This document shows, in pieces, positions 1,850-24,902 of a stretch of 64,000 nt of DNA. The DNA lies in NCBI GenBank assembly GCA_965221955.1, contig CBDCTA010000028.1, forward strand, positions 118,700 through 182,699, read 5' to 3'. Under the pieces are notes generated by a model. It searched no databases. It was not told where the DNA came from and worked only from the letters and a program-made list of their open reading frames with translations. The first letter of the stretch is position 1, and each line of letters starts with the position of its first letter. The translations under genes and the position numbers were made by a program. The DNA comes from Gammaproteobacteria bacterium. GTDB lineage: Bacteria; Pseudomonadota; Gammaproteobacteria; UBA4575.

Positions 1850-3226
1850 CTAGCCATTAGCAATGGAGAGCATTTCTTCACGGCGCGTAAATTTCTCTCG
1901 AGGTTTATTTTTGGGTTCTCCTGCTGCGACTTCTGCTGCATCAATTTTCATCCATTGGCCATAATTGATGTATTGCACACCATTGCCATCCAAAATTTTA
2001 TACAAAGCTTCTCGACCAGGTTTATTTGCATCTAATTTCGACACATCTTCTAGCAACATATCTACTGACTCCACTGCGCATGCGCGGTTGGTACCTATAA
2101 TTCCAGAAGGACCACGCTTAATCCAACCTGCTGTATATAAACCTGGCACCACATCCCCTCCATGTTCAGTCGTAATACGTCCATTTTCATTAGGGATGGT
2201 GCCCCAACGATCATAGAAAGGTACACCTGGAATAGGCACACCATTGTAGCCAATACTGCGGAATAAAATTCCGCAGTCAATTTCCATGGTTTCACCAATT
2301 CCTTTACAAGATTGTTTAAATGGCTCTCCATCAAGAGTATTAATTTCAAATACAACTTTCTCTAAGCGACCATCACCTTCCAATCGAATAGGGCTTTTTA
2401 GAAACGTAGAAATACAGGTACGCGGCTTTCCTGTGTCTTCAGATTCTGCAAACTTTTGAAAGATTTCGACATTCTTTTTATTCCCACGCCCTTCTTTCAT
2501 TTCCAGTTCTTGCAAACTCGTCTCGTTCAGCTCTAATTCCTTAGGATCAATATAGGCACGACAGTTTTCAATTTCTAAGAATTCTTTTAATTCTTTAGAA
2601 GCAAATTTGGCTTGCGCTGGACCTCGTCGCCCAACCACATAAATCGTTTTAATTTTACTCTCAGCTAATGCATCCAGTGCATGTTGCGAGATATCAGTAT
2701 GTTTCAATTCGTCTACAGACTTCGCCAGAATTCGTGACACATCTGCTGCAACATTCCCTTGACCAATCACAATTGCAGTTTCGTGTGAAAGATCAAATGT
2801 ACGGTCCCGGTAATCTGGATGTCCGTTATACCAACCTACAAACTCTGTTGCCGTGTAACTACCTAATAAATCTTCGCCAGGTACGCCTAACTTACGATCG
2901 GTTTCAGCACCACAGGTATAAATTACGGCATGGTGTGTTTCTTGTAATTCTTCTGCCTTAATATCCTTACCTACCGTTACATTGCCGACAAAATTAAACT
3001 CAGGATTTTGTGCGATTTTCTTATATACTTCGATCGCCTGCTTGAGTTTTGGATGATCAGGAGCCACACCACTGCGCACCAGACCAAATGGTGCAGGCAA
3101 CCTTTCAATCAAATCGATTTCAACATTGAGGTCAGACTTAATTAATGCTTCGGTTGCATAGAAACCACTTGGACCACTTCCAACAATGGCTACACGTAAT
3201 GGGTTACTTTCGCTTCCAAGACTCAT
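1850..3226 (-). CDS. Ferredoxin-NADP+ reductase, adrenodoxin-reductase/FprA type
   Basis: VAIVGSGPSG (FAD), GLVRSGVAPDH, IGQGNVAADV (NADP), GRRGP and GWIKRGPSGIIGTN motifs. Confidence 0.9.
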   Translation of the reverse strand: MSLGSESNPLRVAIVGSGPSGFYATEALIKSDLNVEIDLIERLPAPFGLVRSGVAPDHPKLKQAIEVYKKIAQNPEFNFVGNVTVGKDIKAEELQETHHAVIYTCGAETDRKLGVPGEDLLGSYTATEFVGWYNGHPDYRDRTFDLSHETAIVIGQGNVAADVSRILAKSVDELKHTDISQHALDALAESKIKTIYVVGRRGPAQAKFASKELKEFLEIENCRAYIDPKELELNETSLQELEMKEGRGNKKNVEIFQKFAESEDTGKPRTCISTFLKSPIRLEGDGRLEKVVFEINTLDGEPFKQSCKGIGETMEIDCGILFRSIGYNGVPIPGVPFYDRWGTIPNENGRITTEHGGDVVPGLYTAGWIKRGPSGIIGTNRACAVESVDMLLEDVSKLDANKPGREALYKILDGNGVQYINYGQWMKIDAAEVAAGEPKNKPREKFTRREEMLSIANG

Positions 3227-3271: not shown

Positions 3272-3300
3272 AAACAAAACGCACAGGAAATTGCTGTGCG
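3272..3300 (-). terminator. Possible intrinsic terminator between the ferredoxin and reductase genes
   Basis: CGCACAG-N7-CTGTGCG hairpin followed on the minus strand by TTTTGTTT. Confidence 0.45.
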
Positions 3301-3332
3301 TAATTAAAGTCTATATATTTTCTAGCAAAAGT

Positions 3333-3454: not shown

Positions 3455-3760
3455 TTAGAATCCTAATTCTGATTTGCGATCTTCAGCACCAGGCAATGGA
3501 TCCATGGGCTCTTCAATTAAAGGCAGGTCACCGCATTTTTCAGCGTTGATTTCAACCCAGCCTTCTTGGCCTTCAGGAATGTCATCTTCTTCATAAATAG
3601 CCTCTACTGGACATTCTGGAATACATGCACTGCAATCAATACAAACCTCAGGGTCGATATAAAGCATTTCATCATCGTAGTGAAAACACGCAACTGGACA
3701 AACCGAAACACAATCTGTGAATCGACAGCCCTTACAATTTTCAGTTACAACTGTAGTCAT
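3455..3760 (-). CDS. fdxA: 7Fe ([3Fe-4S][4Fe-4S]) ferredoxin, Azotobacter FdI type
   Basis: CKGCRFTDCVSVCPVAC and CIDCSACIPECP motifs. ATG 3760 has a GGAG RBS and is preferred over the track start at 3799. Confidence 0.9.
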   Translation of the reverse strand: MTTVVTENCKGCRFTDCVSVCPVACFHYDDEMLYIDPEVCIDCSACIPECPVEAIYEEDDIPEGQEGWVEINAEKCGDLPLIEEPMDPLPGAEDRKSELGF

Positions 3761-3847: not shown

Positions 3848-4666
3848 TTATTTTGAAAACAATAAAACCTCGCCACGATTGAGTTCAATCCCGTCTCCGC
3901 TATAACGTTTGTAGATACCATTTAGGTGTTTATCTTGAATTTTCCTCTTGAAGCCATGGTCTTGCAACTTCCTAAGATAAAATCTTAAAAATAGTGGGCG
4001 ATATGTGCACGCATACTCGAAGCTAGGTAACATCTGCGCATCTTCTAATGATGCAATAGTGCCACGTTTCATACCTGCACCCGTTCGAATACCTAATTCA
4101 CCCAAAACAATAATCGAACCTGCCAACATATTTACACCTGTGAAATCACCTGCGTTTCCACCAATCGCAATAAAACCACGGCGCATGGCACTACCAATCT
4201 CGTTTTTTGCATCGCCATGAATAAATATTTCTCCACCTGTAATACCTACGGTATGACCTCTGTATGCAGCTCCAACCATGTGGCCAGCATTCTTTTTAAC
4301 AACAATACGACCACCCGACATTTCAGGGCCCACCCAATCTCCAGCATTACCTTCTACGACAATTTCTCCACCTGACATTCCTAATCCAAGGTGCATGCCT
4401 ACATCACCTTCAATGATGATTTTGCCCTCTGACATACCGGCACCAATCATTTTTACATTGGATAAATCGCCCTCGAGTAAAATTTCAGAATTGCCTTTAC
4501 CTGTTACTGTAAAGAAATCGCCTAAATTTGCTTTTACATTGCCATGCATTACAGGTAAATGCTCAATACCTGATTGTGATAGACCAGATAGTGTTGCCGT
4601 GTTAAGCACTTCAGCTTCCAACGGTACATCTGGTTGAGTGTGCAATTTTAAATGCGCTGTAGACAT
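3848..4666 (-). CDS. fwdC: Formylmethanofuran dehydrogenase subunit C (GXGXG beta-helix)
   Basis: Repeated GxxMSGGxIxxxGNAG units; last gene of the fwdDBA-ftr-C block. Confidence 0.9.
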   Translation of the reverse strand: MSTAHLKLHTQPDVPLEAEVLNTATLSGLSQSGIEHLPVMHGNVKANLGDFFTVTGKGNSEILLEGDLSNVKMIGAGMSEGKIIIEGDVGMHLGLGMSGGEIVVEGNAGDWVGPEMSGGRIVVKKNAGHMVGAAYRGHTVGITGGEIFIHGDAKNEIGSAMRRGFIAIGGNAGDFTGVNMLAGSIIVLGELGIRTGAGMKRGTIASLEDAQMLPSFEYACTYRPLFLRFYLRKLQDHGFKRKIQDKHLNGIYKRYSGDGIELNRGEVLLFSK

Positions 4667-4719
4667 AATATGTTACTTTATATCTGACTTATTTCTTGTT
4701 GTATTTAATGTAAAAAAAT

Positions 4720-5610
4720 TTATCCAACTAATTCATTTAAGTGGAATTTATACTTACCTAGCTCTCCACCGTAATTACCTGCCGAAATCATTGTGGCACC
4801 TTTTTCTGCTGCCGCCTTTATACCTCGTCGCATGGCTTCTTTAACGGCATCTTCAGTGAGACCATCGATCACGATCTCATAAATGGCTTCGACATTTTCA
4901 GGCACAACTGTATTATTACTAATTGATCGAAGCGTTGGACAATATGCGTCATTTGTTGATGCAATCATGCCTTTATATTTTGCACCGATTTTACTTCCCG
5001 ATCGCACGACCCCCTGCGGGAAAGGCAAAAATACGCCACCCACTTCACGCATTGCATGAGTTGCTGCAATCGACGCGCGTAATGCGATGCCTCTTGTTGA
5101 ACCAAATATAATTAAATTACCCCCGCCTACTGCGGGTTTAATTCCGAATTGATCATCAATGAGAAACTCACCTGACATTACAGGAATCCGCCACAAGCGA
5201 ATGTCATCAATAAGCTTACTAATTTGATAACCATCACCAAAGAAACGTAATTTACCACCAACAGAAACAGAATCTTCAGATTCCAAACCGTTGTAACAGG
5301 CTGATGTCGGACAAGTCATCACACACTGACCGATACGATCAATTAATTGACCTGCAATGGTTTTAGAACTCATAGTGAATAACAACACGCTTATTCCAGG
5401 ACGACCATCTGGTGTATCTGATTCAGGTATTTCACACTCCACTGCAGCTTCTAATTTGCAACGAATTACAGATGTAGCAAACCCTGTCATAGAAGCCGCC
5501 GCCGCACGCGCCCATTGTTTCGTATCAGCAGTGATAATCACTCGCGAGCCACACATTTCAAATGCTTCTGCAAATGTATCTACAATTTCAGTTTTACCAA
5601 TTTTCATCAT
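4720..5610 (-). CDS. ftr: Formylmethanofuran:H4MPT formyltransferase, copy 1
   Basis: IVDTFAEAF, ETPDGRPG-like TPDGRPG, RIGQCVMTCPT, RSGSK and AGNYGG motifs. Confidence 0.93.
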   Translation of the reverse strand: MMKIGKTEIVDTFAEAFEMCGSRVIITADTKQWARAAAASMTGFATSVIRCKLEAAVECEIPESDTPDGRPGISVLLFTMSSKTIAGQLIDRIGQCVMTCPTSACYNGLESEDSVSVGGKLRFFGDGYQISKLIDDIRLWRIPVMSGEFLIDDQFGIKPAVGGGNLIIFGSTRGIALRASIAATHAMREVGGVFLPFPQGVVRSGSKIGAKYKGMIASTNDAYCPTLRSISNNTVVPENVEAIYEIVIDGLTEDAVKEAMRRGIKAAAEKGATMISAGNYGGELGKYKFHLNELVG

Positions 5611-5623
5611 GTTGATAACTAAA

Positions 5624-7270
5624 CTAAGCTTTAGGGTTTACAGGAACCACTTCATGTTTGTGTAAATATTCTTCACCAATTGCATAGTTGCTAAACTTAA
5701 CCGAATAATAATCTTCAAAGAATGGCTCAATTTCACCCGCAATATCTTCGTTATAACCTGGTTTAGAATGCAGTAGTTTGCCCTTATGGTCTGTTGCAAA
5801 TTCATGATCTTTAATTACCGTTACACCATCTTTGATGACATAACGTGGTGCATTAAACATCGCTTCTTTATCATCTTCTTCAGTGTAGATTGTAATGTCC
5901 GCATCAGCGCCGTTTCCAAGATGACCTTTATTCGCCAACCCCAAGGCTCTTGCAGGGCCAGCACGAGTAATAATGGCAATTTCATTTAAAGTATATTCAC
6001 GATCTAAGTCACGCAAACTAGATTGGTCAATTGCTTTTTGATTTACATGTTTCAGTGCTTCTTTTCTATAACCACTATCCATTAATAACTTAATCAGTTT
6101 TGGATAACTCATAAATGAACCACCATTTGGATGATCTGTTGATAGCAAAACACGCCATGGGTCTTTTGAATGCAGAAACAATTCTAAACCCATTGCCCAT
6201 TGCAAGGCGTGGGTGTACACACTTTCTTGATAAGAAAACGGAATAATTCCACACCCACTTTCACATTCTGTATCAGCATTTACCCACTTCGCAGGTTTTA
6301 CGTTTCTTAACATCCACGCCAAGGGGGCATCTGCAGTCATTGCAGTCGCTTTACCAAACATGACCTGACCCACATCACAGGTGATGTTTTCGTTATCATT
6401 TACGTAATCAATTATATCTTTTACACCAGACTTGGCGTTTTTATTTAACTCTCCCCCAAAACTATGAAACTGGATATGCGCCATGTGTACTCGACGACCT
6501 TGTGCAGCTTTCATCGTGTCCAGCGTGGTACTGATGTTTCCGCTGTGACCCAAATTATTACAATGCACGTGTGGCGGATGAGGCAATCCTAATTCATGCG
6601 CAGCTTCAATAAAGCTTTCGATAACATGATTTGGCGTGATATCGTAGTGATCGATTTTCTCATTAACGTTGGTAATATTTGCATTTTTACGTCCCTTCCA
6701 TAATTCATCACTACCCACGTTTACTAGCTTAAGTGTGTGTGCATGCACGGAATTAATCCACCATGCAATTGCTTCTTTAAATTCGTTCTTGCGACCTTCT
6801 TTAAGTAGTTTATATAAAAATGCATTATTCCCAAGCAACACATAGAAACCTTTATCAATAACTGGTGTGTCATCTAATTCTTCTAAGGTATGTCTTGCAG
6901 ATATCGGTGGAACTGCTGCTTCCATTGCTGTGGTGTATCCCATGGTGGCATATCGATACCCAGTCGCAAAAGTAGAAGGCACAATACCTCCTGTTCCGGA
7001 ACGTGTAATCGCAGTTTTTGGATGCACATCTAAACGATGATCTTCAGGTTGAAGTTTTCGTGCTAGATTTACTTTTGCACCTGCAATATGACAATGAATA
7101 TCTACTGCGCCTGGCATAATCACCATGCCATGTGCATCTATTTTAGTTGCTGAACCCGAAACTGAATCAACGACCTTGCCGTCTTTTACACAGACGTCTT
7201 GAACTTTACCATCGATATTGTTTGCAGGATCGTATACACGACCATTTACAATTCTTAACTCTGAAGACAT
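5624..7270 (-). CDS. fwdA: Formylmethanofuran dehydrolase/dehydrogenase subunit A (binuclear amidohydrolase), copy 1
   Basis: GRVYDPAN, DIHCHIAG, KLVN, HVHCNNLG, AHIQFHSFG and STDHPNGG motifs. Confidence 0.93.
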   Translation of the reverse strand: MSSELRIVNGRVYDPANNIDGKVQDVCVKDGKVVDSVSGSATKIDAHGMVIMPGAVDIHCHIAGAKVNLARKLQPEDHRLDVHPKTAITRSGTGGIVPSTFATGYRYATMGYTTAMEAAVPPISARHTLEELDDTPVIDKGFYVLLGNNAFLYKLLKEGRKNEFKEAIAWWINSVHAHTLKLVNVGSDELWKGRKNANITNVNEKIDHYDITPNHVIESFIEAAHELGLPHPPHVHCNNLGHSGNISTTLDTMKAAQGRRVHMAHIQFHSFGGELNKNAKSGVKDIIDYVNDNENITCDVGQVMFGKATAMTADAPLAWMLRNVKPAKWVNADTECESGCGIIPFSYQESVYTHALQWAMGLELFLHSKDPWRVLLSTDHPNGGSFMSYPKLIKLLMDSGYRKEALKHVNQKAIDQSSLRDLDREYTLNEIAIITRAGPARALGLANKGHLGNGADADITIYTEEDDKEAMFNAPRYVIKDGVTVIKDHEFATDHKGKLLHSKPGYNEDIAGEIEPFFEDYYSVKFSNYAIGEEYLHKHEVVPVNPKA

Positions 7271-7351
7271 ATATTTTAGTTGTTATTTTTTACAACAACT
7301 CCATCGCTGCAGTTGCTCTAAATTTATTAATTATGTTATCCGTTTTAAAAT

Positions 7352-8725
7352 TTACGCAGCAACGCGTGCTTTACTTCCCTTAAGCTTTTCTTTAACGCGT
7401 TTGCGAATCGCCTCTAATACTTCTTGGTCGGATGGATAGGTCGATTCAAATGCAGGGCGCAAAGAAATCGGCACATCATCCATTCTATAAACTGTACCAC
7501 CTGTGTTAATGCCATAAGTTGAAACTGCAAAACGCACTTTAGCAATACTACTTGTCACTGTGTCTTTTGTATCTAATGAAATAATTGGAATTTTCTTCAT
7601 ATGTTCAATTGCAGCTTTAGGAAAATTTGACGCAGGATCAGAAGCAATAATCATCGCCGCATCCGCCTCTCCACGTGAAAGCAAATCAGTCGTTGTAAAT
7701 TCACCTGGATTAAAACGAGGGTAGCCGCGATTGAAATTCACACCAAAAGGATATCCTGTTTGCCAAGACACAACATTATCAGCTCCTGTCACATTACCAT
7801 GGCCACGTACAGGTTTAGCTACGAAGTGAGTAAATTCATTTAAATCTGCCGCTAATGACAATAACGCTCCCGAATTAAAATGCCGCCCTCTCGTCATCGT
7901 TAAACCCATACCAAAAAACAACACGCCAAATTGGCAGTTCTTCATGCGATCAACTAAGTCATCTAATACATCTCGTGATACGCCTGTTTGTTCTTCAATG
8001 TCGTTACTAATCTTTTTACCTTTAACCAACGCACGCAACGCCCATAGTACTTCAAAGTCTTTACCAGGTTTAAGTTTTACAAAGATATCCGCTACAGGCG
8101 CACTTGGTGTTTTACGCACATCAAATAACACTACAGTACGATCTTTTTTCCCATTTGGAATGTACATACCTTTTGGTGTTACCGCATAACGTGTGAAATG
8201 TCGTGGATGTGATTCAGCTGGATTACCACCCCAGTAGATAATTAAATCTGCACGGTTCTTAACTTCACCTAATGTTGCAGTACTCTCCCCTACTCCTTGG
8301 AAGGCCATACCCGATGGACCGTGACAAACTGACGTTGTGGTATCAATGTTCCCGTTTATCGTATCCATGATATCTACGGTGACACGTTGTGCTTCACAAG
8401 TTGAATCACTCATTCCATACGTGATTGGAAACTTTGCATCAACTAAGATCTTTGCTGCTGCTTCAACACCTTCTTCAAAACTGGCTTTTTTACCATCAAT
8501 TAACACTTCTGGGCGCGTATCTAAAGTGTGTTCGTAAAACCAGGCACGGCCTAAAACACACGCTTTTTTAGCTTTGGTAATTTTATGTTGATCTAGATCG
8601 ACTGTGAGTTCCATATCGTCACAAACACAACCACAAAAGGTGCACGTTGCGTCTTTAACGATTTTAATATTTTTATTTTCTTCTTTGGTTTTTACGGGTG
8701 CTTTTGCAGGCGCTGTTTCACTCAT
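7352..8725 (-). CDS. fwdB: Formylmethanofuran dehydrogenase subunit B (Mo/W-bisPGD catalytic subunit, motifs intact)
   Basis: CTFCGCVCDD...KACVLG [4Fe-4S] ligands, SVCHGPS (metal-ligating Cys plus His), TLGEVKNRAD, NPAESHPRH and RGHGNV. Confidence 0.92.
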   Translation of the reverse strand: MSETAPAKAPVKTKEENKNIKIVKDATCTFCGCVCDDMELTVDLDQHKITKAKKACVLGRAWFYEHTLDTRPEVLIDGKKASFEEGVEAAAKILVDAKFPITYGMSDSTCEAQRVTVDIMDTINGNIDTTTSVCHGPSGMAFQGVGESTATLGEVKNRADLIIYWGGNPAESHPRHFTRYAVTPKGMYIPNGKKDRTVVLFDVRKTPSAPVADIFVKLKPGKDFEVLWALRALVKGKKISNDIEEQTGVSRDVLDDLVDRMKNCQFGVLFFGMGLTMTRGRHFNSGALLSLAADLNEFTHFVAKPVRGHGNVTGADNVVSWQTGYPFGVNFNRGYPRFNPGEFTTTDLLSRGEADAAMIIASDPASNFPKAAIEHMKKIPIISLDTKDTVTSSIAKVRFAVSTYGINTGGTVYRMDDVPISLRPAFESTYPSDQEVLEAIRKRVKEKLKGSKARVAA

Positions 8726-8756
8726 AACAAATATTCCAAATAATTAAGTAATAAAT

Positions 8757-9101
8757 TTATCTTGCTTTAGTAACGGTAACTTCCATATGTTTAGACAATG
8801 GCATACCTGTTCCAGCAGTATCCGATGCCATCAATTCACTTGAAGGTGGCCCATACGGAATAAAAATCATTCCTGAGGGAAGGTCTTCATCTTTTTTACT
8901 TTTACAGGTCACTACAGTTTGGCCAACCTCTGACTTCAAACGAATTTTGTCACCATCTTTCAACTTAAGTCGCTTCATGTCTTTTTCATTCAGCTCAGCA
9001 GTAGAGGTTACTTTCTTATATTCGTCTTTAAGCTTGCCTTCATTTAGAGATGTCCCCTGGCTTTGTGACCGGCCGGGTACAAGTATCATGGTCTCCGCCA
9101 T
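8757..9101 (-). CDS. fwdD: Formylmethanofuran dehydrogenase subunit D (molybdopterin dinucleotide-binding domain)
   Basis: GRSxxQG, LNxxDMKRLxLKDGDKI, GMIFIPYGP and TAGTGMPxxK motifs; first gene of the operon. Confidence 0.88.
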   Translation of the reverse strand: MAETMILVPGRSQSQGTSLNEGKLKDEYKKVTSTAELNEKDMKRLKLKDGDKIRLKSEVGQTVVTCKSKKDEDLPSGMIFIPYGPPSSELMASDTAGTGMPLSKHMEVTVTKAR

Positions 9102-9460
9102 CTAGGATTCCTTATAAATACAAAAAGTAATAAGTTTTTACTGTAAGCGAGAGAAAATAGATCTTAGGCCAAATTTCGTTCCACCAAACGTATTCGATGA
9201 GAAAAACCGCCAATTGTCTACCCCAAATTTAAGGTAAAGAGGTAGTGTGTGCTAACTCTGCAGAGATATAATGTTAGCATATTTAACTTAATTTACACCT
9301 GCTTTAGCTAATATTTGAGGCTATATAGGGGTTAAAGCTGGGTAAGAAATAAACAGTTACAGCAAGTTAGCAACTAGCTTGAACAGGCTATAATTCGCTA
9401 CACTAAACTGATAAGAACAATTGAATACCATAATAACAACCCTATTCAAGGAGATTTTCC

Positions 9461-9733: not shown

Positions 9734-9748
9734 TCTCAATAAAATCTA

Positions 9749-9870
9749 ATTACATCGAGATTTTGATTTAGTATGAAGCGCAGTGCTTTCGAGAAGCAGA
9801 GTTTACATTTAAATAAATGAGCATCGCTGAAAGTACTGCAACGAAGTAATAGATCAAAAGATCACGTAAT
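9749..9870. repeat. Palindromic intergenic element (RPE/MITE-like), copy 2
   Basis: Nested IRs ATTAC/GTAAT, TTTTGATTTA/TAGATCAAAA and GCAGTGCTTTC/GAAAGTACTGC; core GAGTTTAC-N7-TAAATGAGCA...AACGAAGTA. Confidence 0.7.
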
Positions 9871-10164: not shown

Positions 10165-10806
10165 TTAGTTTGGTATTAGGTTTGTCGTATCACACTGATC
10201 ATTCGACCAACCAAAAGTTTTCTCCATGAAGTTAGCAAAAAATGACTTCTTTTTAGCAACGGGAGCTTCTTCTACTGATTCACCATTCTCTGCCATGCGT
10301 TCATATTTAGCCACCATACTGCGCAAAAAAGAAATCATATCAGGCGAATCCCACTCTCTTTCACCCACTGCCTTATAAACAATATTACCTTCTGGATTAA
10401 TTAAGAACGTGGTCGGAAGCCCTTGCACACCCCAATTTGCCAAACTCATATCTTTATCAATCAAAATGGTAAAAGATACGGGTACCGACTCTAAAAACTT
10501 TTTAACTCCTGCAAGACTTGGCCCCACATGAACACCAACCACCTCCAGACTTTCATCATTAAACGCATTATGCAAGTTACTCATGGCTGGCATTTCTTCA
10601 CGACATGGTGCACACCAAGTTGCCCAAAAATTTAGTAAAACAAATTTACTTTTATAATCATCCAAGCTCTTTTTACTGCCATCAATTCCTTCAAGATTAA
10701 AGCCACTAGCCTTAGGCGAACCACTAACTGGGTCCATTAACTTTCCAGCCCATACAGAGTTAACACCTATTGAAGCAAATATAAAAATAAACAATAGCCT
10801 ATTCAT
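10165..10806 (-). CDS. TlpA/ResA-like thiol-disulfide oxidoreductase
   Basis: LLNFWATWCAPCREEMP and GLPTTFLI (cis-Pro) motifs; signal peptide from ATG 10806 with an AGGA RBS. Confidence 0.88.
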   Translation of the reverse strand: MNRLLFIFIFASIGVNSVWAGKLMDPVSGSPKASGFNLEGIDGSKKSLDDYKSKFVLLNFWATWCAPCREEMPAMSNLHNAFNDESLEVVGVHVGPSLAGVKKFLESVPVSFTILIDKDMSLANWGVQGLPTTFLINPEGNIVYKAVGEREWDSPDMISFLRSMVAKYERMAENGESVEEAPVAKKKSFFANFMEKTFGWSNDQCDTTNLIPN

Positions 10807-10883
10807 TAGTTTCCTAATCTTTAAGTTTGTAAAATCCATAGTACTGCTTAGATAGCTGCTCTACCAATAAGTTCTTCCGTTGA

Positions 10884-11402
10884 TTAACTTTGCACTGAAA
10901 GCCCTTGCTCTTCATCACTTTCTAAGATGCTTTGTATAAAATCGATCATGAATGGCGAATTCCATACCCTCGTACCTACTGCTCTATAACGTATATTTCC
11001 TTGCGGACCAACGATAAATGTTGTCGGTAAAATTGGAATACCCCATTCTCCCAGCTGCAAGTCTATATCAAACAATACTGTGTAAGTGACTTTATTCAGC
11101 TCTAACACCTCCTCAACCCCGTCATAGTTGTCTCCAGCATGGATTGAGATCACTGCAAGTTTTTCACTATCTAGTAATTCATAGGCGCTTTGCAAAGTAG
11201 TCATTTCGCTTTTACAGACATTGCATGACATGGCCCAAAAATTTACCAGGACATATTTACCGCGAAAATCAGCAAAATCATGCTTATCACCTTGCAAATC
11301 AAATAAAGAAAAATTCTTTGCTATTACATTCGGTGGGTAAGAATCCAGTAGACGCCCTTCTTCAGCATATAATGGTAGCAAGATCAAAAAGCTTACGAGC
11401 AC
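10884..11402 (-). CDS. TlpA-like redoxin (CxxC = CNVC)
   Basis: LVNFWAMSCNVCKSEM and ILPTTFIV. An in-frame ATG at 11456 is separated from this ORF by a TAA at 11421-11423. Confidence 0.82.
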   Translation of the reverse strand: MLVSFLILLPLYAEEGRLLDSYPPNVIAKNFSLFDLQGDKHDFADFRGKYVLVNFWAMSCNVCKSEMTTLQSAYELLDSEKLAVISIHAGDNYDGVEEVLELNKVTYTVLFDIDLQLGEWGIPILPTTFIVGPQGNIRYRAVGTRVWNSPFMIDFIQSILESDEEQGLSVQS

Positions 11403-11441
11403 AACAAGAAAAAAGATAATTTAGACAAAACTAAATTTCTC

Positions 11442-11560
11442 AGATTTTATTCTCATGCGCTCTGGGACTCTTGGACAAACATATTTACTTGATTTTATTT
11501 CGTGTGCCCTGGGTTACTGGTTAACCAAACAATTATTTAATCTTATTCTCATGCGCCCAA
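11442..11560 (-). repeat. Three degenerate copies of the mauG-like gene's 3' end (encoding AHENKIK-stop)
   Basis: Minus strand reads GCGCATGAGAATAAGATTAAATAA, GCACACGAAATAAAATCAAGTAA and GCGCATGAGAATAAAATCTGA at roughly 45-50 nt spacing. Confidence 0.7.
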
Positions 11561-12891
11561 TTCGGATCATCTGCACTGATATCACCAATTGGTGCAGCAA
11601 AAGCATCTGCCACGATGGTAGCTACATTACTACCCGTTAGCGATTCAAGAAATGCAACGACATTATCCATTTCTTCGTCAGTTAAGCCTAGCGGTTTAAT
11701 CAAAGGACTCAGCACTTCATTAGGTACTCCGCCTTGATTATAAAACTCCATGACTTCACGCAATGTTTGCATAGAGCCATCGTGCATATATGGAGCAGTT
11801 AAAGCAACGTTTCTGAGTGTGGGAGTACGAAACTTCCAGCGATCATTTGGATTTTCTGTGACTTCATAACGACCCAAATCATTTTCTTTAGGTCTGGACA
11901 CTCTCTTAATAACTTCATTATCTAATTCAGTGAACACTCCTGGGGCCAATTGCACACGCGTAGTTTTAGAGATAGACCCCATCGATGCTTGATAACCGAG
12001 ACCAGTATTATGTAACTGGTCATCCGCAAATAAAGCATAATCTTCATGCACCAAGTGACAAGCAGTGCAATTTCCTTTACCACTAAAAGTTTCAAATCCG
12101 CGTTTCACTTGCTCGCTTACTGCATCTTCCTGCTTGCCAAAATACCAACGATCAAATGGAGAATCTGCAGAATTTAAGGTGCGCTGATAATTAGCAAGTG
12201 CCATGCCTATCGTTTCCATTGTAGGCCCCCGTCCATTAAAAGCTTTTTCAAACAAACCATCATACTCAGGAATCGCTTTGATTTTATTAATCACATAGCC
12301 AATAGATGGATTTGCCATTTCATTACGTGCCAAAAAAGGTGCCCAAACTTGCTGCTCTAAAGTAGATTCTCTTCCATCGTGAAATATCTTACCTAGATAA
12401 GCAACGTTATAAATCATGGGTGAGTTTCGCTTACCTGACCGCCCTTCTACACCTACTGCAGTTTGAATTTCATTATTAGTAAAACCTTGTTCAGGGATAT
12501 GGCATATCGCACAAGAAAAAGTATCATTAATTGACAAGCGCCGATCAAAAAATAATTTCCTACCAAGGGATACTTTTTCTTTTGTGACAGGGTTACTTTC
12601 TGGCACTGGAACCGCGGGCAACCCCAATGGTGGATTATTAACAAAAACCAGTAGATCCGTTTCTATACCAATACGTTTTTGCAAATCTAAAGCATTTGTC
12701 TTGTAATCAATTGAGTCATAACCTTGTTTATTATCTCCCGGACCAAATATATGTTTATTACTTATCTCCTCAGACTCAACTTCCTGTTGAGCAGAGCTAT
12801 GCAAATTATTAGACAAAAGTAATAAAGCCAAAATACCAAACAAGATTATAGTATTTATAAAATAAATTTTTTTTTGTTCAAATAGCTTCAT
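11533..12891 (-). CDS. MauG-like di-heme cytochrome c peroxidase (putative TTQ biosynthesis for methanethiol oxidase)
   Basis: CAICH and CTACH heme motifs, LGRKLFFDRRLS, KFRTPTLRNVALTAPYMHDGS; mtoX-sco-mauG order. Confidence 0.88.
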   Translation of the reverse strand: MKLFEQKKIYFINTIILFGILALLLLSNNLHSSAQQEVESEEISNKHIFGPGDNKQGYDSIDYKTNALDLQKRIGIETDLLVFVNNPPLGLPAVPVPESNPVTKEKVSLGRKLFFDRRLSINDTFSCAICHIPEQGFTNNEIQTAVGVEGRSGKRNSPMIYNVAYLGKIFHDGRESTLEQQVWAPFLARNEMANPSIGYVINKIKAIPEYDGLFEKAFNGRGPTMETIGMALANYQRTLNSADSPFDRWYFGKQEDAVSEQVKRGFETFSGKGNCTACHLVHEDYALFADDQLHNTGLGYQASMGSISKTTRVQLAPGVFTELDNEVIKRVSRPKENDLGRYEVTENPNDRWKFRTPTLRNVALTAPYMHDGSMQTLREVMEFYNQGGVPNEVLSPLIKPLGLTDEEMDNVVAFLESLTGSNVATIVADAFAAPIGDISADDPNWAHENKIK

Positions 12892-13637
12892 TGTTTAATT
12901 GCATCAATTGTTAAAATTCCATCTTCAATTAGGAGCGTTTTTATATCCGCGCTAACAAGCTGATCATGCAAAAAAGATACACTGTATTCTTGCCTAATAT
13001 TCTTATTTCTATCGATTAAGAATGCGCGTAATACATGTGCCATTGCACCTGTATACTCACCATTTTCGTCATACTGCTTAATTACCATTTGCCCAAATTC
13101 ATTGGCAATCGGTAATAACGCTTCTTCGGAAGCTGTAGTAAGAAAATGCCATTCAGGTTGTCCACCTTCAAAACCAGCTCCATATAACTTCATCACTTCA
13201 GGGGTATCACGCTCAGGATCAAAACTTACACTTACTAAACGAATTTTATCTGCTAGTTTTGGATACTGTTTAAATCTATCTTTAATCTTATAAAAGACTG
13301 CTGTTGCCAAAGGACAACCATTAAGGTCAGTACAGCTGCTATATATAAATGTAAGTAATACTATTTTATCTCCGTACAAACTACTTAAATCTATTTCTTT
13401 GCCTTCAACGTCTAAAACGATTCCTCCAGCAGCCTGATTAATTTTTGATAAAGAATAACTTCCAGGCTGTGGCACCTCATACGGTAGCTCGGTCACCCAT
13501 CCATCGGCAATTATTCTAACCTCACTTGCTACAACATCTGCATGTGATCCAGGCAAAGGCGCATCATTGTCAATTCCCTGTTCACATGAAATTAATAACA
13601 AAGTTAATGCTAATAGTATTAGTCGTGTAATCTTCAT
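12888..13637 (-). CDS. SCO1/SenC copper chaperone, lipoprotein (mto-associated)
   Basis: Lipobox LISC, YSSCTDLNGCP Cys pair, SFDPERDTPE and AHVLR His; ATGA overlap with the mauG-like gene. Confidence 0.88.
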   Translation of the reverse strand: MKITRLILLALTLLLISCEQGIDNDAPLPGSHADVVASEVRIIADGWVTELPYEVPQPGSYSLSKINQAAGGIVLDVEGKEIDLSSLYGDKIVLLTFIYSSCTDLNGCPLATAVFYKIKDRFKQYPKLADKIRLVSVSFDPERDTPEVMKLYGAGFEGGQPEWHFLTTASEEALLPIANEFGQMVIKQYDENGEYTGAMAHVLRAFLIDRNKNIRQEYSVSFLHDQLVSADIKTLLIEDGILTIDAIKQ

Positions 13638-13667
13638 CTATGAAAATTTTTGTAGTACTGTTTTCAG

Positions 13668-13702
13668 AAAAAACAAGGCCGCCTCTATGGGCGGCCTTGT
13701 TT
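13668..13702 (-). terminator. Intrinsic terminator after mtoX copy 1
   Basis: AAACAAGGCCGCC-TCTATG-GGCGGCCTTGTTT hairpin with a U tract on the minus strand. Confidence 0.85.
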
Positions 13703-13746
13703 AAGTAACTTAAATTGCCGTTACATTGAAGTAACCGCTCCTATCC

Positions 13747-15126
13747 TTACTTTACATAAGACATCATTTTACCGCTAGAGTTCGGCTTTTGCGAGTAAAG
13801 TGAATATGCCCCAAACCGCATTTGATGCGCACGACCCAGCTTTAATTCGTAAAAATCCACTTCAAACTCAAGGTTAAGTTTTTTACCATCCCAAGTAAAC
13901 AATTTTAAAAATTGCTCATTATCCTCACCCGTCTTATCCCAGTTACTTAACAAAGAAGTTGTATAGTAGTTTCTCTTACCATCCCAACTTTGTGAAACCA
14001 TGTTCACTTGCCTACCAATCTGAGTCTCATAGGTTTGTTTAGGCGCAAAAGGGTCTGAGATATCAAAATAACGAGATGTGCCATCCATAAAGGTTTGTAC
14101 CCAAAGGCCTTGATCATCCGCAGTAATTGAGATATCCACTGGTAAAGGTACCTTAGAAGGATCGCCAATATCGGCAACGTCTTTTGACTGCCATTCACCG
14201 GACTCATCTTCATATATTAAATATAGTTTTGAAGTTAACGCAGTACTTGTAATACACCAATTATTTTCAGAACGCCAAGCACAGCGAATTTCTAGTGGTG
14301 CACCTGGCACATCCAGAACTTTCTTAGGCTTACGAGTGTGCAAATCCCAAACCACAACGGTGTTACCAAAGCGTTTCATCGCTTCTGGATCGGCCAACAT
14401 TTGACCAAAATCCATCATGTAGTTGGACCAACCAGTGAACGACGTTGTAACCATTATGTTACGTCGTGGTAATGCTCGAATGTCATAACCATAGCCATCC
14501 GCATATTTACCACCTTTCTTAGCACCGCGAAGATCTTCATCGGTAGGATTCCAGTAGGCAGCAATAAAGTCACCTTTGTTGGTATATTCAGCAAGCCCGG
14601 TACGACCGCCATGGTCTACATTGTTCGATAATCCATTAATGATCATGCGACCCGGCAGTGCATATAGTGTATGTGGCCCTACCATGCCACCTGTCTTCTC
14701 AACAAAATCTGTGATCACTTTGTAAAGCTTAGGCTTACCTGGGTCAGTGTGAACATCAAAAATAAAAATTTTACTACTGTCCAAACTACCCGCAAAAAGG
14801 TATTTACGATCATCCGTTAAACCAGAGTGATGCGCTTCATTACGACCACCTACAGATAAAACGTTTACAACTTTTCCATATGTATCTGCATTTGGGTTAA
14901 CAGAAACTGTAACAAGCTTATCTTGCTCATCACCCATTCCTTCAACACCTAATGTCCATACATATACATAGTCCTCTTGCCCTACAATTTTTGCCATGTA
15001 AGGGGACATGCATGTCTCATCTGCCATTGCGGTAGATTGGAAACCAATTACAGAGGCAAACAGTACACACGTGAATGTGATGATGCTCTGCATCCATTTG
15101 GTTTTTGATACTGCCTTTCTCTTCAT
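13747..15126 (-). CDS. mtoX: Methanethiol oxidase (SBP56/SELENBP1 family), copy 1, intact
   Basis: Signal peptide ending AMA-DETCMSPYM; GGRNEAHHSG, GPHTLYALPGR, SFTGWSNYM and SLLSNWDK (the two Trp expected for TTQ); GRAHQMRFG. Confidence 0.95.
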   Translation of the reverse strand: MKRKAVSKTKWMQSIITFTCVLFASVIGFQSTAMADETCMSPYMAKIVGQEDYVYVWTLGVEGMGDEQDKLVTVSVNPNADTYGKVVNVLSVGGRNEAHHSGLTDDRKYLFAGSLDSSKIFIFDVHTDPGKPKLYKVITDFVEKTGGMVGPHTLYALPGRMIINGLSNNVDHGGRTGLAEYTNKGDFIAAYWNPTDEDLRGAKKGGKYADGYGYDIRALPRRNIMVTTSFTGWSNYMMDFGQMLADPEAMKRFGNTVVVWDLHTRKPKKVLDVPGAPLEIRCAWRSENNWCITSTALTSKLYLIYEDESGEWQSKDVADIGDPSKVPLPVDISITADDQGLWVQTFMDGTSRYFDISDPFAPKQTYETQIGRQVNMVSQSWDGKRNYYTTSLLSNWDKTGEDNEQFLKLFTWDGKKLNLEFEVDFYELKLGRAHQMRFGAYSLYSQKPNSSGKMMSYVK

Positions 15127-18434: not shown

Positions 18435-19700
18435 ATGCAATTTAAAACTGTAACCTGTCCACATTGTGGGCTGCTGTGTGACGATCTGGAAATCAACGTT
18501 TCAAACTTATCCGTTGAATACACAGGACCCAATGGCCCCAAATGCGAACGAGCTATTCAAGCATTTGATGATGCATCGTTGAATGATAATGAAGTACCAA
18601 AGCCACTCATCTTGGGAAAACCCGTTTCTGAACAACAGGCATTAGAAAAAGCTGCTGAACTATTACGTAACGCCAAACTACCATTAATAAGCGGATTGAT
18701 TGCAGATGTTCAAGCCAACAGAGAAGCGATCGCACTAACAGAAAAAATTGCTGGTGTCATAGACCACGAGAATGGGAGCGCGCTACGTAAAGGCGTAGCA
18801 GTAATGCAGCGCATGGGTGAAGTGCGTACTACACTAGCAGAAGTACGCAACCGAGCAGATTGTGTTGTGATTTTTGGTAACAAGATCACTACAAAATTTC
18901 CTCGTTTATTACCTCGAATATTGAGCCCAGAAAAAGCCTTAAGTAACGAAAATTATAAAAATAAAAAAATATTTATTCTTGATATTTCAAACGATGGAAT
19001 AACCCAATGTGAAGTTGAAAATAATATCACTCACGTGAAGTTCAATTATCCATTAATTGAATCTCTTGTTTATCGCTTTCAAGAAGTTATTACTCGACCA
19101 AAAGAATATTTCACAGATCGCGATCTACAGACTGAAGAGCTTTTTAAAATACTGGATACTATTTTATCCAGTCAGTACACAACTATTGTCTGGAGCACTA
19201 GTGATTTTAATCCAGAATCTGCTGAACACACCATACAAGCATTAACTGAAACGATTAAAACATTAATGAAAAATGTTCGTTGTGTAGGGTTACCTCTTGG
19301 CGGCTCCAAAGGCGAAATGACGGCAAATCAAGTTTCGACATGGCAAACGGGAGTCGCTTTACCTGTTTCTTTTGCGCAAGGCACTCCTATCCATGACCCT
19401 GTGTTATACGATGGAATGAAAATGTTGAAAAACTCAGAAACCGATTGCTTATTATGGGTGGCTACTTATAACTCGGAAAACATCCCACCTGAAAACAACA
19501 TCCCAACTATTTTATTGGGTCACCCAAAAATAAAATATGAGCATGCTGAAGTTTATCTTCCTGTTGGTGTACCTGGGATTGATCACCGCGGTTTGGCTTG
19601 TCGTACAGATAACGTTGCAACACTACCCTTACACGCACTTCGTGAAAGCAAGCTTTCTCCTGCAAACACTCTTTTAAATAAACTTATTCAGCTAATCTAA
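18435..19700 (+). CDS. fhcB: Formyltransferase/hydrolase complex subunit B (degenerate FwdB homolog)
   Basis: CPHCGLLCDD and TTLAEVRNRAD are kept, but CH and RGHxNV are replaced by DHENGS and GGSKGE; WQTG and GVPGIDH present. Confidence 0.9.
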   Translation: MQFKTVTCPHCGLLCDDLEINVSNLSVEYTGPNGPKCERAIQAFDDASLNDNEVPKPLILGKPVSEQQALEKAAELLRNAKLPLISGLIADVQANREAIALTEKIAGVIDHENGSALRKGVAVMQRMGEVRTTLAEVRNRADCVVIFGNKITTKFPRLLPRILSPEKALSNENYKNKKIFILDISNDGITQCEVENNITHVKFNYPLIESLVYRFQEVITRPKEYFTDRDLQTEELFKILDTILSSQYTTIVWSTSDFNPESAEHTIQALTETIKTLMKNVRCVGLPLGGSKGEMTANQVSTWQTGVALPVSFAQGTPIHDPVLYDGMKMLKNSETDCLLWVATYNSENIPPENNIPTILLGHPKIKYEHAEVYLPVGVPGIDHRGLACRTDNVATLPLHALRESKLSPANTLLNKLIQLI

Positions 19701-19705
19701 CTTTT

Positions 19706-21364: not shown

Positions 21365-21368
21365 AACC

Positions 21369-24882: not shown

Positions 24883-24902
24883 GGAATGTTGGAGAAAAAG
24901 TA

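What the first reader, a model, noticed from the sequence alone, without database searches (positions are those of the whole stretch)
3848..9101. Archaeal-style, apparently redox-competent formylmethanofuran dehydrogenase (fwdD-B-A-ftr-C) in a gammaproteobacterium
Seen: FwdB keeps four [4Fe-4S] Cys (CTFCGCVC...C), the metal-ligating Cys-His (SVCHGPS) and RGHGNV, and a separate FwdD gene is present. Known: the Fhc complex of Methylorubrum extorquens has lost the pterin cofactor and FwdD and only hydrolyses formyl-methylofuran to formate, while methanogen Fwd/Fmd interconverts formyl-MFR and CO2 using ferredoxin. Inference: this is a true Mo/W formyl-MFR dehydrogenase that oxidises the formyl group directly to CO2 with low-potential electrons, or reduces CO2 into the H4MPT pathway. 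Divergent fwdD-containing clusters are known genomically in some bacteria, but I know of no biochemical characterisation in a proteobacterium.
Basis: partly seen in the sequence, partly recalled or inferred. Interest (0 to 1): 0.88.

Follow-up and report, generated by a model that had tools for sequence, protein, structure and literature searches.

The report
Bacterial formyl-methanofuran dehydrogenase wired to NADP
An uncultured marine gammaproteobacterium carries, beside the usual formate-releasing bacterial enzyme, a second complex that keeps every sequence hallmark of the archaeal metal enzyme that burns the formyl group straight to CO2, and this complex sits next to its own ferredoxin and NADPH-ferredoxin reductase.

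Summary
Window 3848-9101 (- strand) encodes FwdD, FwdB, FwdA, Ftr and FwdC. FwdB keeps the four [4Fe-4S] cysteines and the Cys-His and Arg of the archaeal active site. It matches solved archaeal FwdB at E 1e-96 to 1e-115, but M. extorquens FhcB only at 2e-14.

- Two more genes follow on the same strand: a 7Fe ferredoxin (3455-3760) and an FprA-type NADPH-ferredoxin reductase (1850-3226). All seven genes lie in the same order in 56 of 80 related loci.
- A second cluster, fhcBADC with a dead active site, plus an NAD-type formate dehydrogenase, lies at 18435-27656.
- A methanethiol oxidase cluster lies between the two sets.

In three of five complete relatives' chromosomes the Fwd-type set is the only B-subunit homologue. 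No formate dehydrogenase or formate-THF ligase was found there.

My reading is an Fhc-like Ftr/Fwd complex with a live Mo/W dehydrogenase. It oxidises formyl groups to CO2 and passes electrons through ferredoxin and FprA to NADP+. Confidence is about 0.55, and nothing is biochemically tested.

Redox-type fmdDBAC operons are published for planctomycetes and NC10. This scan already noted the same seven-gene operon on other DNA (e1-1427159). I class it as a new variant of a known kind.

The parts
8757..9101 (-). fwdD: cap subunit (molybdopterin dinucleotide-binding 'fourth domain')
   Evidence: It matches NF042908 at 8e-25 and archaeal FwdD chains (2ki8_A 8.8e-20, 5t5i_D 2.8e-12). It lies directly upstream of fwdB in 78 of 78 informative loci.
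7352..8725 (-). fwdB: Mo/W-bis-pterin subunit with an N-terminal [4Fe-4S] motif (C28, C31, C35, C56), active-site C134-H135 and R307
   Evidence: All seven residues are invariant in 37 of 37 orthologues. It is 25% identical to the in-window FhcB paralogue.
5624..7270 (-). fwdA: binuclear-metal amidohydrolase (formyl-MFR hydrolase/synthase)
   Evidence: Archaeal FwdA chains score 436-485 bits and M. extorquens FhcA 346 bits. The HxH, K, HxH, H and D motifs are present.
4720..5610 (-). ftr (fhcD-like): formyl-MFR:H4MPT formyltransferase
   Evidence: TIGR03119 409 bits. It is 52% identical to the paralogue at 21369-22286.
3848..4666 (-). fwdC: beta-helix scaffold subunit
   Evidence: The AlphaFold model has pLDDT 95. 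The best TM-score is to FhcC 6s6y_C (0.91, rmsd 2.0) against 0.87 for 5t5i_C.
3455..3760 (-). 7Fe (FdI-type) ferredoxin, 101 aa. The true start is the ATG at 3760 behind AGGAG, not the TTG at 3799.
   Evidence: (7Fe ferredoxin I chains at 1e-26 to 9e-28). Of 48 orthologues, 47 are 101 aa and one is 102 aa. Nine Cys are invariant in 37 of 37. It lies downstream of fwdC in 58 of 59 informative loci.
3279..3301 (-). Terminator-like hairpin with a U-run between the ferredoxin gene and fprA
   Evidence: The RNA fold is -11.9 kcal/mol with z -2.8. The window's 228-nt gap is among the longest: the median gap is 41 nt in 56 loci.
1850..3226 (-). fprA: adrenodoxin-reductase-type NADPH-ferredoxin reductase
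   Evidence: M. tuberculosis FprA 1lqt_A 1.5e-108 over the full length; adrenodoxin reductase 1cjc_A 5.8e-98. It is present in 55 of 57 informative loci. See for co-occurrence.
18435..23097 (+). Context: second, Fhc-type cluster fhcB-A-D-C. FhcB keeps the four Cys but has A, L and G in place of Cys, His and Arg. No fwdD is present.
23206..27656 (+). Context: NAD-type formate dehydrogenase (NuoE/NuoF-like fusion 23206-24882; alpha subunit 24903-27656)
   Evidence: TIGR01591 802 bits, cut-off 666.
10165..15126 (-). Context: methanethiol oxidase mtoX (13747-15126), SCO1/SenC (12888-13637), MauG-like di-haem enzyme (11533-12891) and two TlpA/ResA-like thiol-disulfide oxidoreductases (10165-11402). 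This is the likely source of formaldehyde.
   Evidence: MtoX scores over its cut-off in 5 of 5 complete relatives.

Best explanation
The cluster fwdD-fwdB-fwdA-ftr-fwdC-fdx-fprA encodes a hybrid. It has the gene order, and probably the architecture, of the bacterial formyltransferase/hydrolase complex, with Ftr built in. Its B/D module, however, is a live Mo- or W-bis-pterin formate-dehydrogenase-type site as in archaeal Fwd/Fmd.

Proposed path:
1. Formaldehyde, here probably from methanethiol oxidase, enters the H4MPT pathway.
2. Ftr moves the formyl group from H4MPT to (methylo)furan.
3. FwdA hydrolyses it.
4. The formate is oxidised to CO2 at FwdBD instead of being released.
5. The two electrons leave through the FwdB [4Fe-4S] cluster to the dedicated 7Fe ferredoxin.
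6. FprA passes them to NADP+.

Shown: the genes, the motifs, their conservation, the synteny and the co-occurrence. Inferred: cofactor binding, direction, ferredoxin as acceptor, and NADP+ as the final acceptor.
For: (1) FwdB keeps C28, C31, C35, C56, C134, H135 and R307, invariant in 37 of 37 orthologues that are 72-90% identical to it. These align to the archaeal residues (residue roles from PMC6926001).

(2) FwdD is present in 78 of 78 informative loci.

(3) All seven genes lie in the same order and strand in 56 of 80 loci. The ferredoxin is present in 58 of 59 informative loci and FprA in 55 of 57. The ferredoxin-fprA gap is 60 nt or less in 34 of 56 loci. Two rearranged loci keep the link: L103 has fdx-fprA upstream of fwdD, and L078 has fprA upstream.

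(4) Phyletic pattern in an even draw of 401 genomes of the class. There are 21 with Fwd-type B (494-520 bits, plus G366 at 425) and 34 with Fhc-type B only (185-409 bits). FprA at 58% identity or more is in 20 of the 21, in 3 of the 34, and in none of the other 345 scored. Four of the 21 (G044, G146, G301, G313) are unpublished genomes.

(5) In complete chromosomes G002, G003 and G005 the Fwd-type gene is the only TIGR03129 match at 100 bits or more. No Fdh-alpha match exceeds the cut-off and no FTHFS was found, yet mch, mobA and mtoX are present.

(6) The own genome has fae, mch, mobA and an fdhD-like gene, and a second FdxA paralogue elsewhere (54% identity). The linked ferredoxin is therefore an extra copy.

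(7) Thermodynamics: the couple is at -0.53 V (PMC11656701) against NADP+ at about -0.32 V (recalled). This gives about -40 kJ/mol in the oxidative direction (my arithmetic).
Against: - There is no biochemical or expression evidence of any kind.
- In this window a terminator-like hairpin and a 228-nt gap separate fdx from fprA.
- Two genomes carry the pair beside Fhc-type genes with no Fwd-type gene found. G209 has fdx-fprA-fhcBAD, and G386 has fprA-fhcBADC with no ferredoxin match in the 9.5 kb upstream. The pair is therefore not strictly tied to Fwd.
- L069 has no ferredoxin or FprA in the 1.4 kb after fwdC.
- In many lineages fdx-fprA lies between the Fwd set and an Fhc set (G019, G166, G331, G238). 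Position alone does not say which set it serves.
- The loci are relatives, so the counts are not independent.
- No FwdF/FwdG-type subunit is present, and how a soluble ferredoxin would dock is unknown.
- FprA-type enzymes are known mainly as NADPH-to-ferredoxin reductases (recalled).
- The cofactor pathway is not diagnostic, because every genome checked has other PF00384 proteins.
- G002 has a 724-aa protein that scores 238 bits on the Fdh-alpha model. It could be a formate sink.
Confidence: 0.55

Rival explanations
1. FwdBD is an active dehydrogenase, but the neighbouring ferredoxin and FprA are not its dedicated outlet. Electrons would leave to another acceptor. The pair would serve the C1 island in general, the Fhc-type complex whose B subunit also keeps four Cys, or reductive activation and repair.
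For: G209 has fdx-fprA next to fhcBAD, and G386 has fprA (no ferredoxin match) next to fhcBADC, both without Fwd-type genes. The pair lies between the two sets in G019, G166, G331 and G238. There is a terminator-like hairpin before fprA in the window. Fhc-type B subunits keep the CCCC motif.
Against: FprA at 58% identity or more tracks Fwd-type (20 of 21) far better than Fhc-type-only genomes (3 of 34). Those three belong to genera or families whose other members have Fwd. In Fwd-only chromosomes (L013, L020, L035) the pair stays adjacent. G366, in the same family as G209, has frameshifted fwd genes, which suggests recent decay.
Confidence: 0.22
2. It works in the reductive direction. NADPH would reduce the ferredoxin and the complex would fix CO2 into formyl-H4MPT for assimilation.
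For: Archaeal Fwd is reversible and works reductively in methanogens (PMC11656701). FprA-type enzymes usually reduce ferredoxin with NADPH (recalled).
Against: The reaction is uphill by about 0.2 V from NADPH to the -0.53 V couple (arithmetic mine). No electron-bifurcating or ion-driven module lies in the cluster. The context is oxidative: mtoX, fae, mch and a formate dehydrogenase.
Confidence: 0.06
3. It is a hydrolase-only, Fhc-like complex. The cofactor motifs would be relics or serve structure only, and formate would be the product.
For: The only characterised bacterial homologue is such a complex (PMC6926001). Many homologues keep the four Cys yet lack the active site.
Against: Cys, His and Arg are invariant across 37 of 37 sequences, and FwdD is retained in 78 of 78. 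A true active-site-less paralogue coexists in the same genome. Three complete genomes with only this set have no formate dehydrogenase or FTHFS found.
Confidence: 0.07

Closest known systems
Archaeal tungsten/molybdenum formylmethanofuran dehydrogenase FwdABCDFG (Methanothermobacter wolfeii, PDB 5T5I)
   Same: The FwdA, B, C and D subunits are all present. FwdB matches at 4e-112 with the [4Fe-4S] Cys motif, Cys-His and Arg aligned. FwdD matches at 2.8e-12 and FwdA at 2e-140.
   Different: There are no FwdF/FwdG polyferredoxin genes. Instead there is a 7Fe ferredoxin plus FprA. ftr lies inside the cluster in the bacterial B-A-D-C order. The host is an oxygen-respiring-type C1 oxidiser by its gene content.
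Formyltransferase/hydrolase complex FhcABCD of Methylorubrum extorquens (PDB 6S6Y)
   Same: The gene order is B-A-ftr-C (PMC6926001). The FwdC model fits FhcC best (TM 0.91). HMMER aligns FwdC to FhcC over residues 9-268, while most archaeal FwdC alignments end near 205-225. Ftr is probably part of the complex (inferred).
   Different: FhcB lacks the Fe-S domain, Cys118 (Ser62), His119, Arg288 and FwdD. Here all are present, and 6s6y_B matches only at 1.9e-14 over the C-terminal half.
F420-reducing formylmethanofuran dehydrogenase of Ca. Ethanoperedens thermophilum (PDB 8RJA)
   Same: It is an FMD that runs oxidatively with a non-canonical electron module used as a thermodynamic pull (PMC11656701). 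FwdB matches at 4.3e-112.
   Different: That module is a bound F420 reductase in an anaerobic archaeon. Here it is a ferredoxin plus an NADPH-ferredoxin reductase in bacteria.
fmdD-fmdB-fmdA-fmdC operons of planctomycetes, a Lake Washington fosmid and Ca. Methylomirabilis oxyfera (Kim et al. 2016, PMC4807772)
   Same: These are bacterial, redox-type (Cys or Sec) FmdB with FmdD, known from genomes only (passages). Planctomycete loci in my tree are also CCCCCHR.
   Different: No ftr, ferredoxin or FprA was found beside the planctomycete and acidobacterial loci I fetched. They belong to other phyla. PMC5020050 stated in 2016 that fwdD is not present in Proteobacteria.
Mycobacterium tuberculosis FprA with 7Fe ferredoxin
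   Same: There is a full-length match to FprA at 1.5e-108. The partner here is a 7Fe ferredoxin. The pairing of FprA with a 7Fe ferredoxin is recalled, not tested.
   Different: The known direction is NADPH to ferredoxin. Here I propose the reverse flow, driven by a -0.53 V donor.

Membership tests
Mo/W formylmethanofuran dehydrogenase (Fwd/Fmd) | FwdB N-terminal [4Fe-4S] motif CxxCxxxC...C | tested here: met
   C28, C31, C35 and C56 are present and invariant in 37 of 37.
Mo/W formylmethanofuran dehydrogenase (Fwd/Fmd) | Metal-ligand Cys/Sec118 with His119 and Arg288 (M. wolfeii numbering, PMC6926001) | tested here: met
   C134, H135 and R307 align to them and are invariant in 37 of 37. No Sec codon is present.
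Mo/W formylmethanofuran dehydrogenase (Fwd/Fmd) | Separate FwdD cap subunit | tested here: met
   present in 78 of 78 loci.
Mo/W formylmethanofuran dehydrogenase (Fwd/Fmd) | FwdA binuclear amidohydrolase and FwdC beta-helix subunit | tested here: met
Mo/W formylmethanofuran dehydrogenase (Fwd/Fmd) | FwdF/FwdG-type iron-sulfur electron-transfer subunits | tested here: not met
   No such gene is in the cluster. The linked ferredoxin matches FwdG only at 3.4e-4 and FwdF at 9e-6, against 9e-28 for 7Fe ferredoxin I.
Mo/W formylmethanofuran dehydrogenase (Fwd/Fmd) | Bound Mo or W bis-pterin and formyl-MFR:acceptor oxidoreductase activity | not testable with these tools
   mobA and an fdhD-like gene exist, but other molybdoenzyme-family proteins do too.
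Formyltransferase/hydrolase complex (Fhc) | B subunit without pterin and active-site residues, and no FwdD | tested here: not met
   The feature is met instead by the paralogue at 18435-19700.
Formyltransferase/hydrolase complex (Fhc) | ftr (fhcD) inside the cluster, order B-A-D-C | tested here: met
   order as given in PMC6926001.
Formyltransferase/hydrolase complex (Fhc) | C subunit with the Fhc-type C-terminal helix-loop-helix that carries FhcD | tested here: inconclusive
   The model has helices 225-239 and 245-248. TM is 0.91 to FhcC against 0.87 to FwdC. The difference is small and no complex was modelled.
FprA / adrenodoxin reductase family | Full-length homology to NADPH-ferredoxin reductase FprA, including the GRRGP stretch | tested here: met
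   alignment (residues 9-456 to 3-454). That GRRGP binds the 2'-phosphate of NADPH is recalled, not tested.
7Fe ferredoxin (ferredoxin I type) | CxxCxxxxCxxxCP...CxxCxxCxxxCP cysteine pattern | tested here: met
   The Cys are invariant in 37 of 37.

The most novel reading that the evidence does not exclude
A large clade of uncultured marine, sponge-associated and soil Gammaproteobacteria, including a MAG titled USCg_Taylor, runs a one-machine route from formyl-H4MPT to CO2. The machine would be an Fhc-like complex with a built-in Ftr that kept, or regained, a live Mo/W site. It would hand its low-potential electrons through a private 7Fe ferredoxin and FprA to NADP+. It would thus replace both the Fhc hydrolase and formate dehydrogenase, abolish the free-formate branch point, and make NADPH rather than NADH. 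It would also be the living intermediate between archaeal Fwd and bacterial Fhc.
Probability: 0.4. Interest if true: 0.78.

Novelty: new variant of a known kind. Interest (0 to 1): 0.62.

Why it matters
The accepted picture is that bacterial H4MPT-linked C1 oxidation ends in free formate made by a cofactor-less Fhc complex (PMC6926001; PMC10100899). If this complex is active, that picture fails for a sizeable group.
- Scale: 21 of the 55 sampled genomes of this class that have any B-subunit homologue carry the Fwd type.
- Metabolism: carbon and reducing-power budgets for methanethiol and other C1 users in the sea, in sponges and in soils would change. There would be no formate branch point, and NADPH would be made in place of NADH.
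- Enzymology: it would give a formyl-MFR dehydrogenase from an oxygen-exposed host with a simple ferredoxin/NADP+ module. This is of interest to those who study these enzymes as CO2-capturing catalysts (PMC11656701).
- Evolution: it would supply an evolutionary link between Fwd and Fhc.

Tried and rejected
- Complex prediction of FwdB with the ferredoxin (alignments A1 and A2). After four queue refusals it ran and gave no verdict (score 0.10, mark 0.32). This is neither for nor against binding.
- RNA evidence.
- Selenocysteine. Two relatives were flagged with an in-frame TGA. One TGA is the fwdD stop upstream and the other lies in a frameshifted stretch. Both read Cys at the active site.
- Naming the Fhc-type paralogue through public genomes. 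The scan with P0006 found no relative.
- The closest non-gamma representative, P0007. It has only about 50%-identical relatives, in MAGs titled Acidobacteriota and Planctomycetota, and these lack ferredoxin and FprA hits. My ORF extraction for L086 and L088 caught a 113-aa piece only, so their rows are not usable.
- Cofactor pathway as a discriminator. I rejected it because other PF00384 proteins exist in all five genomes.
- Deep origin (archaeal or bacterial). The tree backbone is unresolved (31 of 72 forks open), so I make no claim.
- Metal identity (Mo or W). Not addressed.
- Literature. Ten searches found no description of this gammaproteobacterial cluster or of a ferredoxin/FprA-linked formyl-MFR dehydrogenase. 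Supplements were closed and may hold gene tables that list it. Adam et al. 2019 (Nat Microbiol) is not in the library and was not read.

Full report
OBSERVATION. They translate without breaks. Curated models identify them as follows:
- FwdB: 506 bits, cut-off 328.
- FwdA: 702 bits, cut-off 393.
- Formyltransferase Ftr: 409 bits, cut-off 293.
- FwdC: 252 bits, cut-off 131.
- A 114-aa FwdD-like protein: NF042908 at 8e-25, and Pfam Molydop_binding at 1e-12.

The quoted motifs are present. Against solved structures, FwdB matches five archaeal FwdB chains over its full length at E 1.4e-96 to 2.4e-115. It matches M. extorquens FhcB only at 1.9e-14, over residues 255-448. In the printed alignment, SVCHGPS and RGHGNV lie on the archaeal Cys118-His119 and Arg288. 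The Fhc structure paper names those residues as catalytic and as lost in FhcB, together with the Fe-S domain and FwdD (PMC6926001, passages). FwdD matches archaeal FwdD chains at 8.8e-20 to 2e-08.

On the same strand, 87 nt after fwdC, lies a ferredoxin.
- Its real start is the ATG at 3760 behind AGGAG. This gives 101 aa, as in 47 of 48 orthologues; the remaining one is 102 aa.
- It is a 7Fe ferredoxin-I type: solved 7Fe ferredoxin I chains match at 1e-26 to 9e-28, against FwdG at 3.4e-4.

It is followed by a 458-aa protein that matches M. tuberculosis NADPH-ferredoxin reductase FprA over its full length (1.5e-108) and adrenodoxin reductase (5.8e-98). In this window a 228-nt spacer with a terminator-like hairpin (3279-3301; -11.9 kcal/mol, z -2.8) separates the two genes. 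In 56 related loci the median spacer is 41 nt, and 34 are 60 nt or less.

At 18435-23097 (+) lies fhcB-A-D-C, followed by an NAD-type formate dehydrogenase at 23206-27656.
- This FhcB is 25% identical to FwdB.
- It keeps the four N-terminal Cys but reads A, L and G at the Cys, His and Arg positions.
- It has no fwdD beside it.
- The A, Ftr and C paralogues are 42%, 52% and 31% identical to their Fwd-set counterparts.

Between the two sets lie mtoX (methanethiol oxidase, 764 bits against a cut-off of 650), SCO1, a MauG-like di-haem enzyme and two TlpA-like proteins. The genome also holds fae (two copies), mch, mobA and an fdhD-like gene (134 bits, cut-off 141). No PQQ methanol dehydrogenase was found with TIGR03075 (best 42 bits).

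COMPARATIVE EVIDENCE: SYNTENY. A scan of public genomes found at least 479 stretches encoding relatives. The best 80 (73-95% identical FwdB) were fetched.
- All 80 are MAGs.
- Most are titled as Gammaproteobacteria, Thiotrichales, Chromatiales, Ca. Porisulfidus or Ca. Oxydemutator. One is 'USCg_Taylor'.
- Four of the 80 carry titles of other phyla.

tblastn against these 80 loci gave the following:

| Feature | Present | Informative loci |
|---|---|---|
| fwdD directly upstream of fwdB | 78 | 78 |
| Ferredoxin after fwdC | 58 | 59 |
| FprA | 55 | 57 |

All seven genes lie in the same order and strand in 56 of the 80 loci.
- Exceptions: L069 has neither ferredoxin nor FprA in its last 1.4 kb. 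L065 and L067 carry 1.4-2.3 kb inserts before the ferredoxin.
- Two loci are rearranged but keep the link: L103 reads fdx-fprA-fwdD-B-A-ftr...C, and L078 has fprA upstream of fwdD.

I aligned the window's FwdB with 36 of the 48 orthologues for which I had extracted both FwdB and ferredoxin. The other 12 were left out as near-duplicates and were not examined. All seven key residues are invariant in 37 of 37. The nine ferredoxin Cys are invariant in 37 of 37. More distant FwdB relatives, in MAGs titled Acidobacteriota and Planctomycetota, have no ferredoxin or FprA hit beside them in 16 of 16 loci.

COMPARATIVE EVIDENCE: PHYLETIC PATTERN. I used an even draw of 401 genomes of the window's class. 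The unpublished genomes G044, G146, G301 and G313 are among the positives, and the counts below rest partly on them.
- With the family model, 55 genomes have a B-subunit homologue at E 1e-40 or better.
- The scores are bimodal. Twenty genomes score 494-520 bits, and G366 scores 425 bits once its frameshifted pieces are joined. These are the same 21 genomes that match FwdB at 65-100% identity. Fhc-type matches score 185-409 bits.
- Of the 21 Fwd-type genomes, 15 also have an Fhc-type gene. Six have the Fwd type only: four single-contig genomes 99-100% complete, and two that are 80% and 94% complete.
- FprA at 58% identity or more is present in 20 of the 21. The miss is G015, which is 75% complete.
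- FprA at that level is in 3 of the 34 Fhc-only genomes (G124, G209, G386). Each is in a genus or family that also has Fwd-type members. It is in none of the remaining 345 scored genomes. Four more genomes have 40-47% relatives.
- Kin are not independent, so these are patterns and not statistics.

Against exclusivity, G209 reads fdx-fprA-fhcB-A-D and G386 reads fprA-fhcBADC. Neither has fwd genes in the 9.5-10 kb upstream, and G386 has no ferredoxin match there either. Their FhcB proteins lack Cys, His and Arg. G366, in the same family as G209, has frameshifted fwd genes. This pattern fits decay of the Fwd set with the pair left behind, but it also fits a wider role for the pair.

COMPARATIVE EVIDENCE: FIVE COMPLETE CHROMOSOMES. 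Results for the five relatives were as follows.

| Feature | G001 | G002 | G003 | G004 | G005 |
|---|---|---|---|---|---|
| Fwd-type B | yes | yes | yes | yes | yes |
| Fhc-type B | yes | not found | not found | not found | not found |
| Fdh-alpha over cut-off | yes | not found | not found | yes | not found |
| Formate-THF ligase | not found | not found | not found | yes | not found |
| mch | yes | yes | yes | yes | yes |
| mobA | yes | yes | yes | yes | yes |
| MtoX | yes | yes | yes | yes | yes |

- G001 repeats the window's layout: Fwd type, Fhc type and formate dehydrogenase.
- In G002, G003 and G005 a formate-releasing enzyme would have no identified sink. One caveat is a 724-aa protein in G002 that scores 238 bits on the Fdh-alpha model.

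PHYLOGENY. HMMER against 1.84 billion representatives found 661 proteins at E 1e-30 or better. The best full-length ones are 47-51% identical. Among the query, its paralogue and the 150 best, 17 of 152 read CCCCCHR at the seven positions. Many keep CCCC but not the active site.
- In a FastTree of 135 rows and a quick IQ-TREE of 75 rows, the gammaproteobacterial sequences form one clade (support 100).
- Their sister is two long FwdD-FwdB-length representatives (support 85-87).
- In the FastTree the clade sits inside a 99-supported group that also holds a cluster annotated as Methanobrevibacter/Methanobacterium FwdB (P0038).
- The in-window Fhc-type paralogue sits elsewhere on a long branch.
- The backbone is unresolved (31 of 72 forks open), so I make no claim about an archaeal origin.
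- Planctomycete loci are also CCCCCHR.

It is not met.

ARCHITECTURE. The order B-A-ftr-C is that of fhcBADC (PMC6926001).
- HMMER aligns FwdC to FhcC over residues 9-268. Most archaeal FwdC alignments end near residues 205-225.
- An AlphaFold model of FwdC was built from the window sequence, 30 of the 59 extracted orthologues and the paralogue. It has pLDDT 95 and C-terminal helices at 225-239 and 245-248.
- Its best TM-score is to FhcC (0.91, rmsd 2.0) against 0.87 for M. wolfeii FwdC.

This is a small difference, so it is a hint only that Ftr docks as in Fhc.

MECHANISM. I propose an Fhc-like complex with a live FwdBD site. The steps are formyl-H4MPT, then formyl-(methylo)furan (Ftr), then internal formate (FwdA), then CO2 (FwdBD). 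Electrons would pass through the FwdB [4Fe-4S] cluster to the 7Fe ferredoxin, and then through FprA to NADP+. The couple lies at -0.53 V (PMC11656701, passage). With NADP+ near -0.32 V (recalled), oxidation is downhill by about 40 kJ/mol, and the reverse reaction is unlikely without a bifurcating module. That review also documents an archaeal FMD with a different oxidative outlet (F420), so swapping of electron modules has a precedent. Every step beyond gene content is inferred.

WHAT IS KNOWN.
- PMC5020050 (2016; I read part 1 of 3 of the text) states that fwdD is kept in Archaea, Synergistetes, Firmicutes and NC10 but is not present in Planctomycetes or Proteobacteria.
- PMC4807772 (passages) reports fmdD-B-A-C operons, some with Sec, in a planctomycete, a Lake Washington fosmid and M. 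oxyfera.
- PMC10100899 (passages) counts 149 bacterial FwdB homologues and says Fhc exists in aerobic methylotrophs.
- Ten full-text searches found no description of the gammaproteobacterial cluster or of a ferredoxin/FprA-linked enzyme. Supplements were closed.
- This scan had already noted the same operon, and relatives of it, on other DNA. I reached the same reading before seeing those notes, and I took from them only the lead to PMC4807772.

VERDICT. The feature is real and well conserved. It is a new variant of a known kind, it is untested biochemically, and it is of solid interest to C1 specialists.

Noticed in passing
window 18435-19700, and representatives: Fhc-type B subunits that have lost the Cys-His-Arg active site mostly still keep all four [4Fe-4S] cysteines. 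Most of the 98 'lost' rows among 135 in the tree read CCCC. M. extorquens FhcB lacks that whole domain. Why a mere scaffold should keep an Fe-S cluster is unexplained.
   Followed up: partly
L105 (G209:C4:55000-72000) and L104 (G386:C33:30000-46000): The ferredoxin-FprA pair (G209), or FprA alone (G386), sits directly before an Fhc-type fhcBADC cluster. No Fwd-type genes were found in these genomes.
   Followed up: partly
L103 (G366:C33:128500-140500): The order is rearranged to fdx-fprA-fwdD-B-A-ftr...C. fwdB, fwdA and fwdC are each broken into frame-shifted pieces. This is either gene decay or assembly error.
   Followed up: partly
window 15396-16778 (-): Upstream of the intact mtoX there is a second, partial methanethiol-oxidase reading frame. 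The 278-aa ORF matches only positions 1-207 of the 408-position model. A 134-aa ORF follows it. It looks like a split or decayed duplicate.
   Followed up: no
window 9446-10160 (-): Two small ORFs (97 and 96 aa) lie between the TlpA-like genes and fwdD. They have no Pfam or NCBIfam match but are conserved at 42-84% identity in the closest loci.
   Followed up: no
window 52935-54558 (-): dnaX appears split. A 302-aa ORF matches only the first 293 positions of the gamma/tau models, and an overlapping 259-aa ORF follows in another frame. This could be a frameshift, programmed or an assembly error.
   Followed up: no
L090-L099 (MAGs titled Planctomycetota): FwdB homologues with the full CCCCCHR set stand without fwdA, ftr, fwdC or fwdD hits within the roughly 7 kb fetched on each side.
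   Followed up: no
L102 (G015:C98:2000-6000): An Fhc-type fhcD-fhcC pair lies directly upstream of fwdD on the same strand. Here the two sets abut in the order fhc...-fwd..., the reverse of the fwd...fprA-fhcB layout seen in G019, G166, G331 and G238.
   Followed up: no
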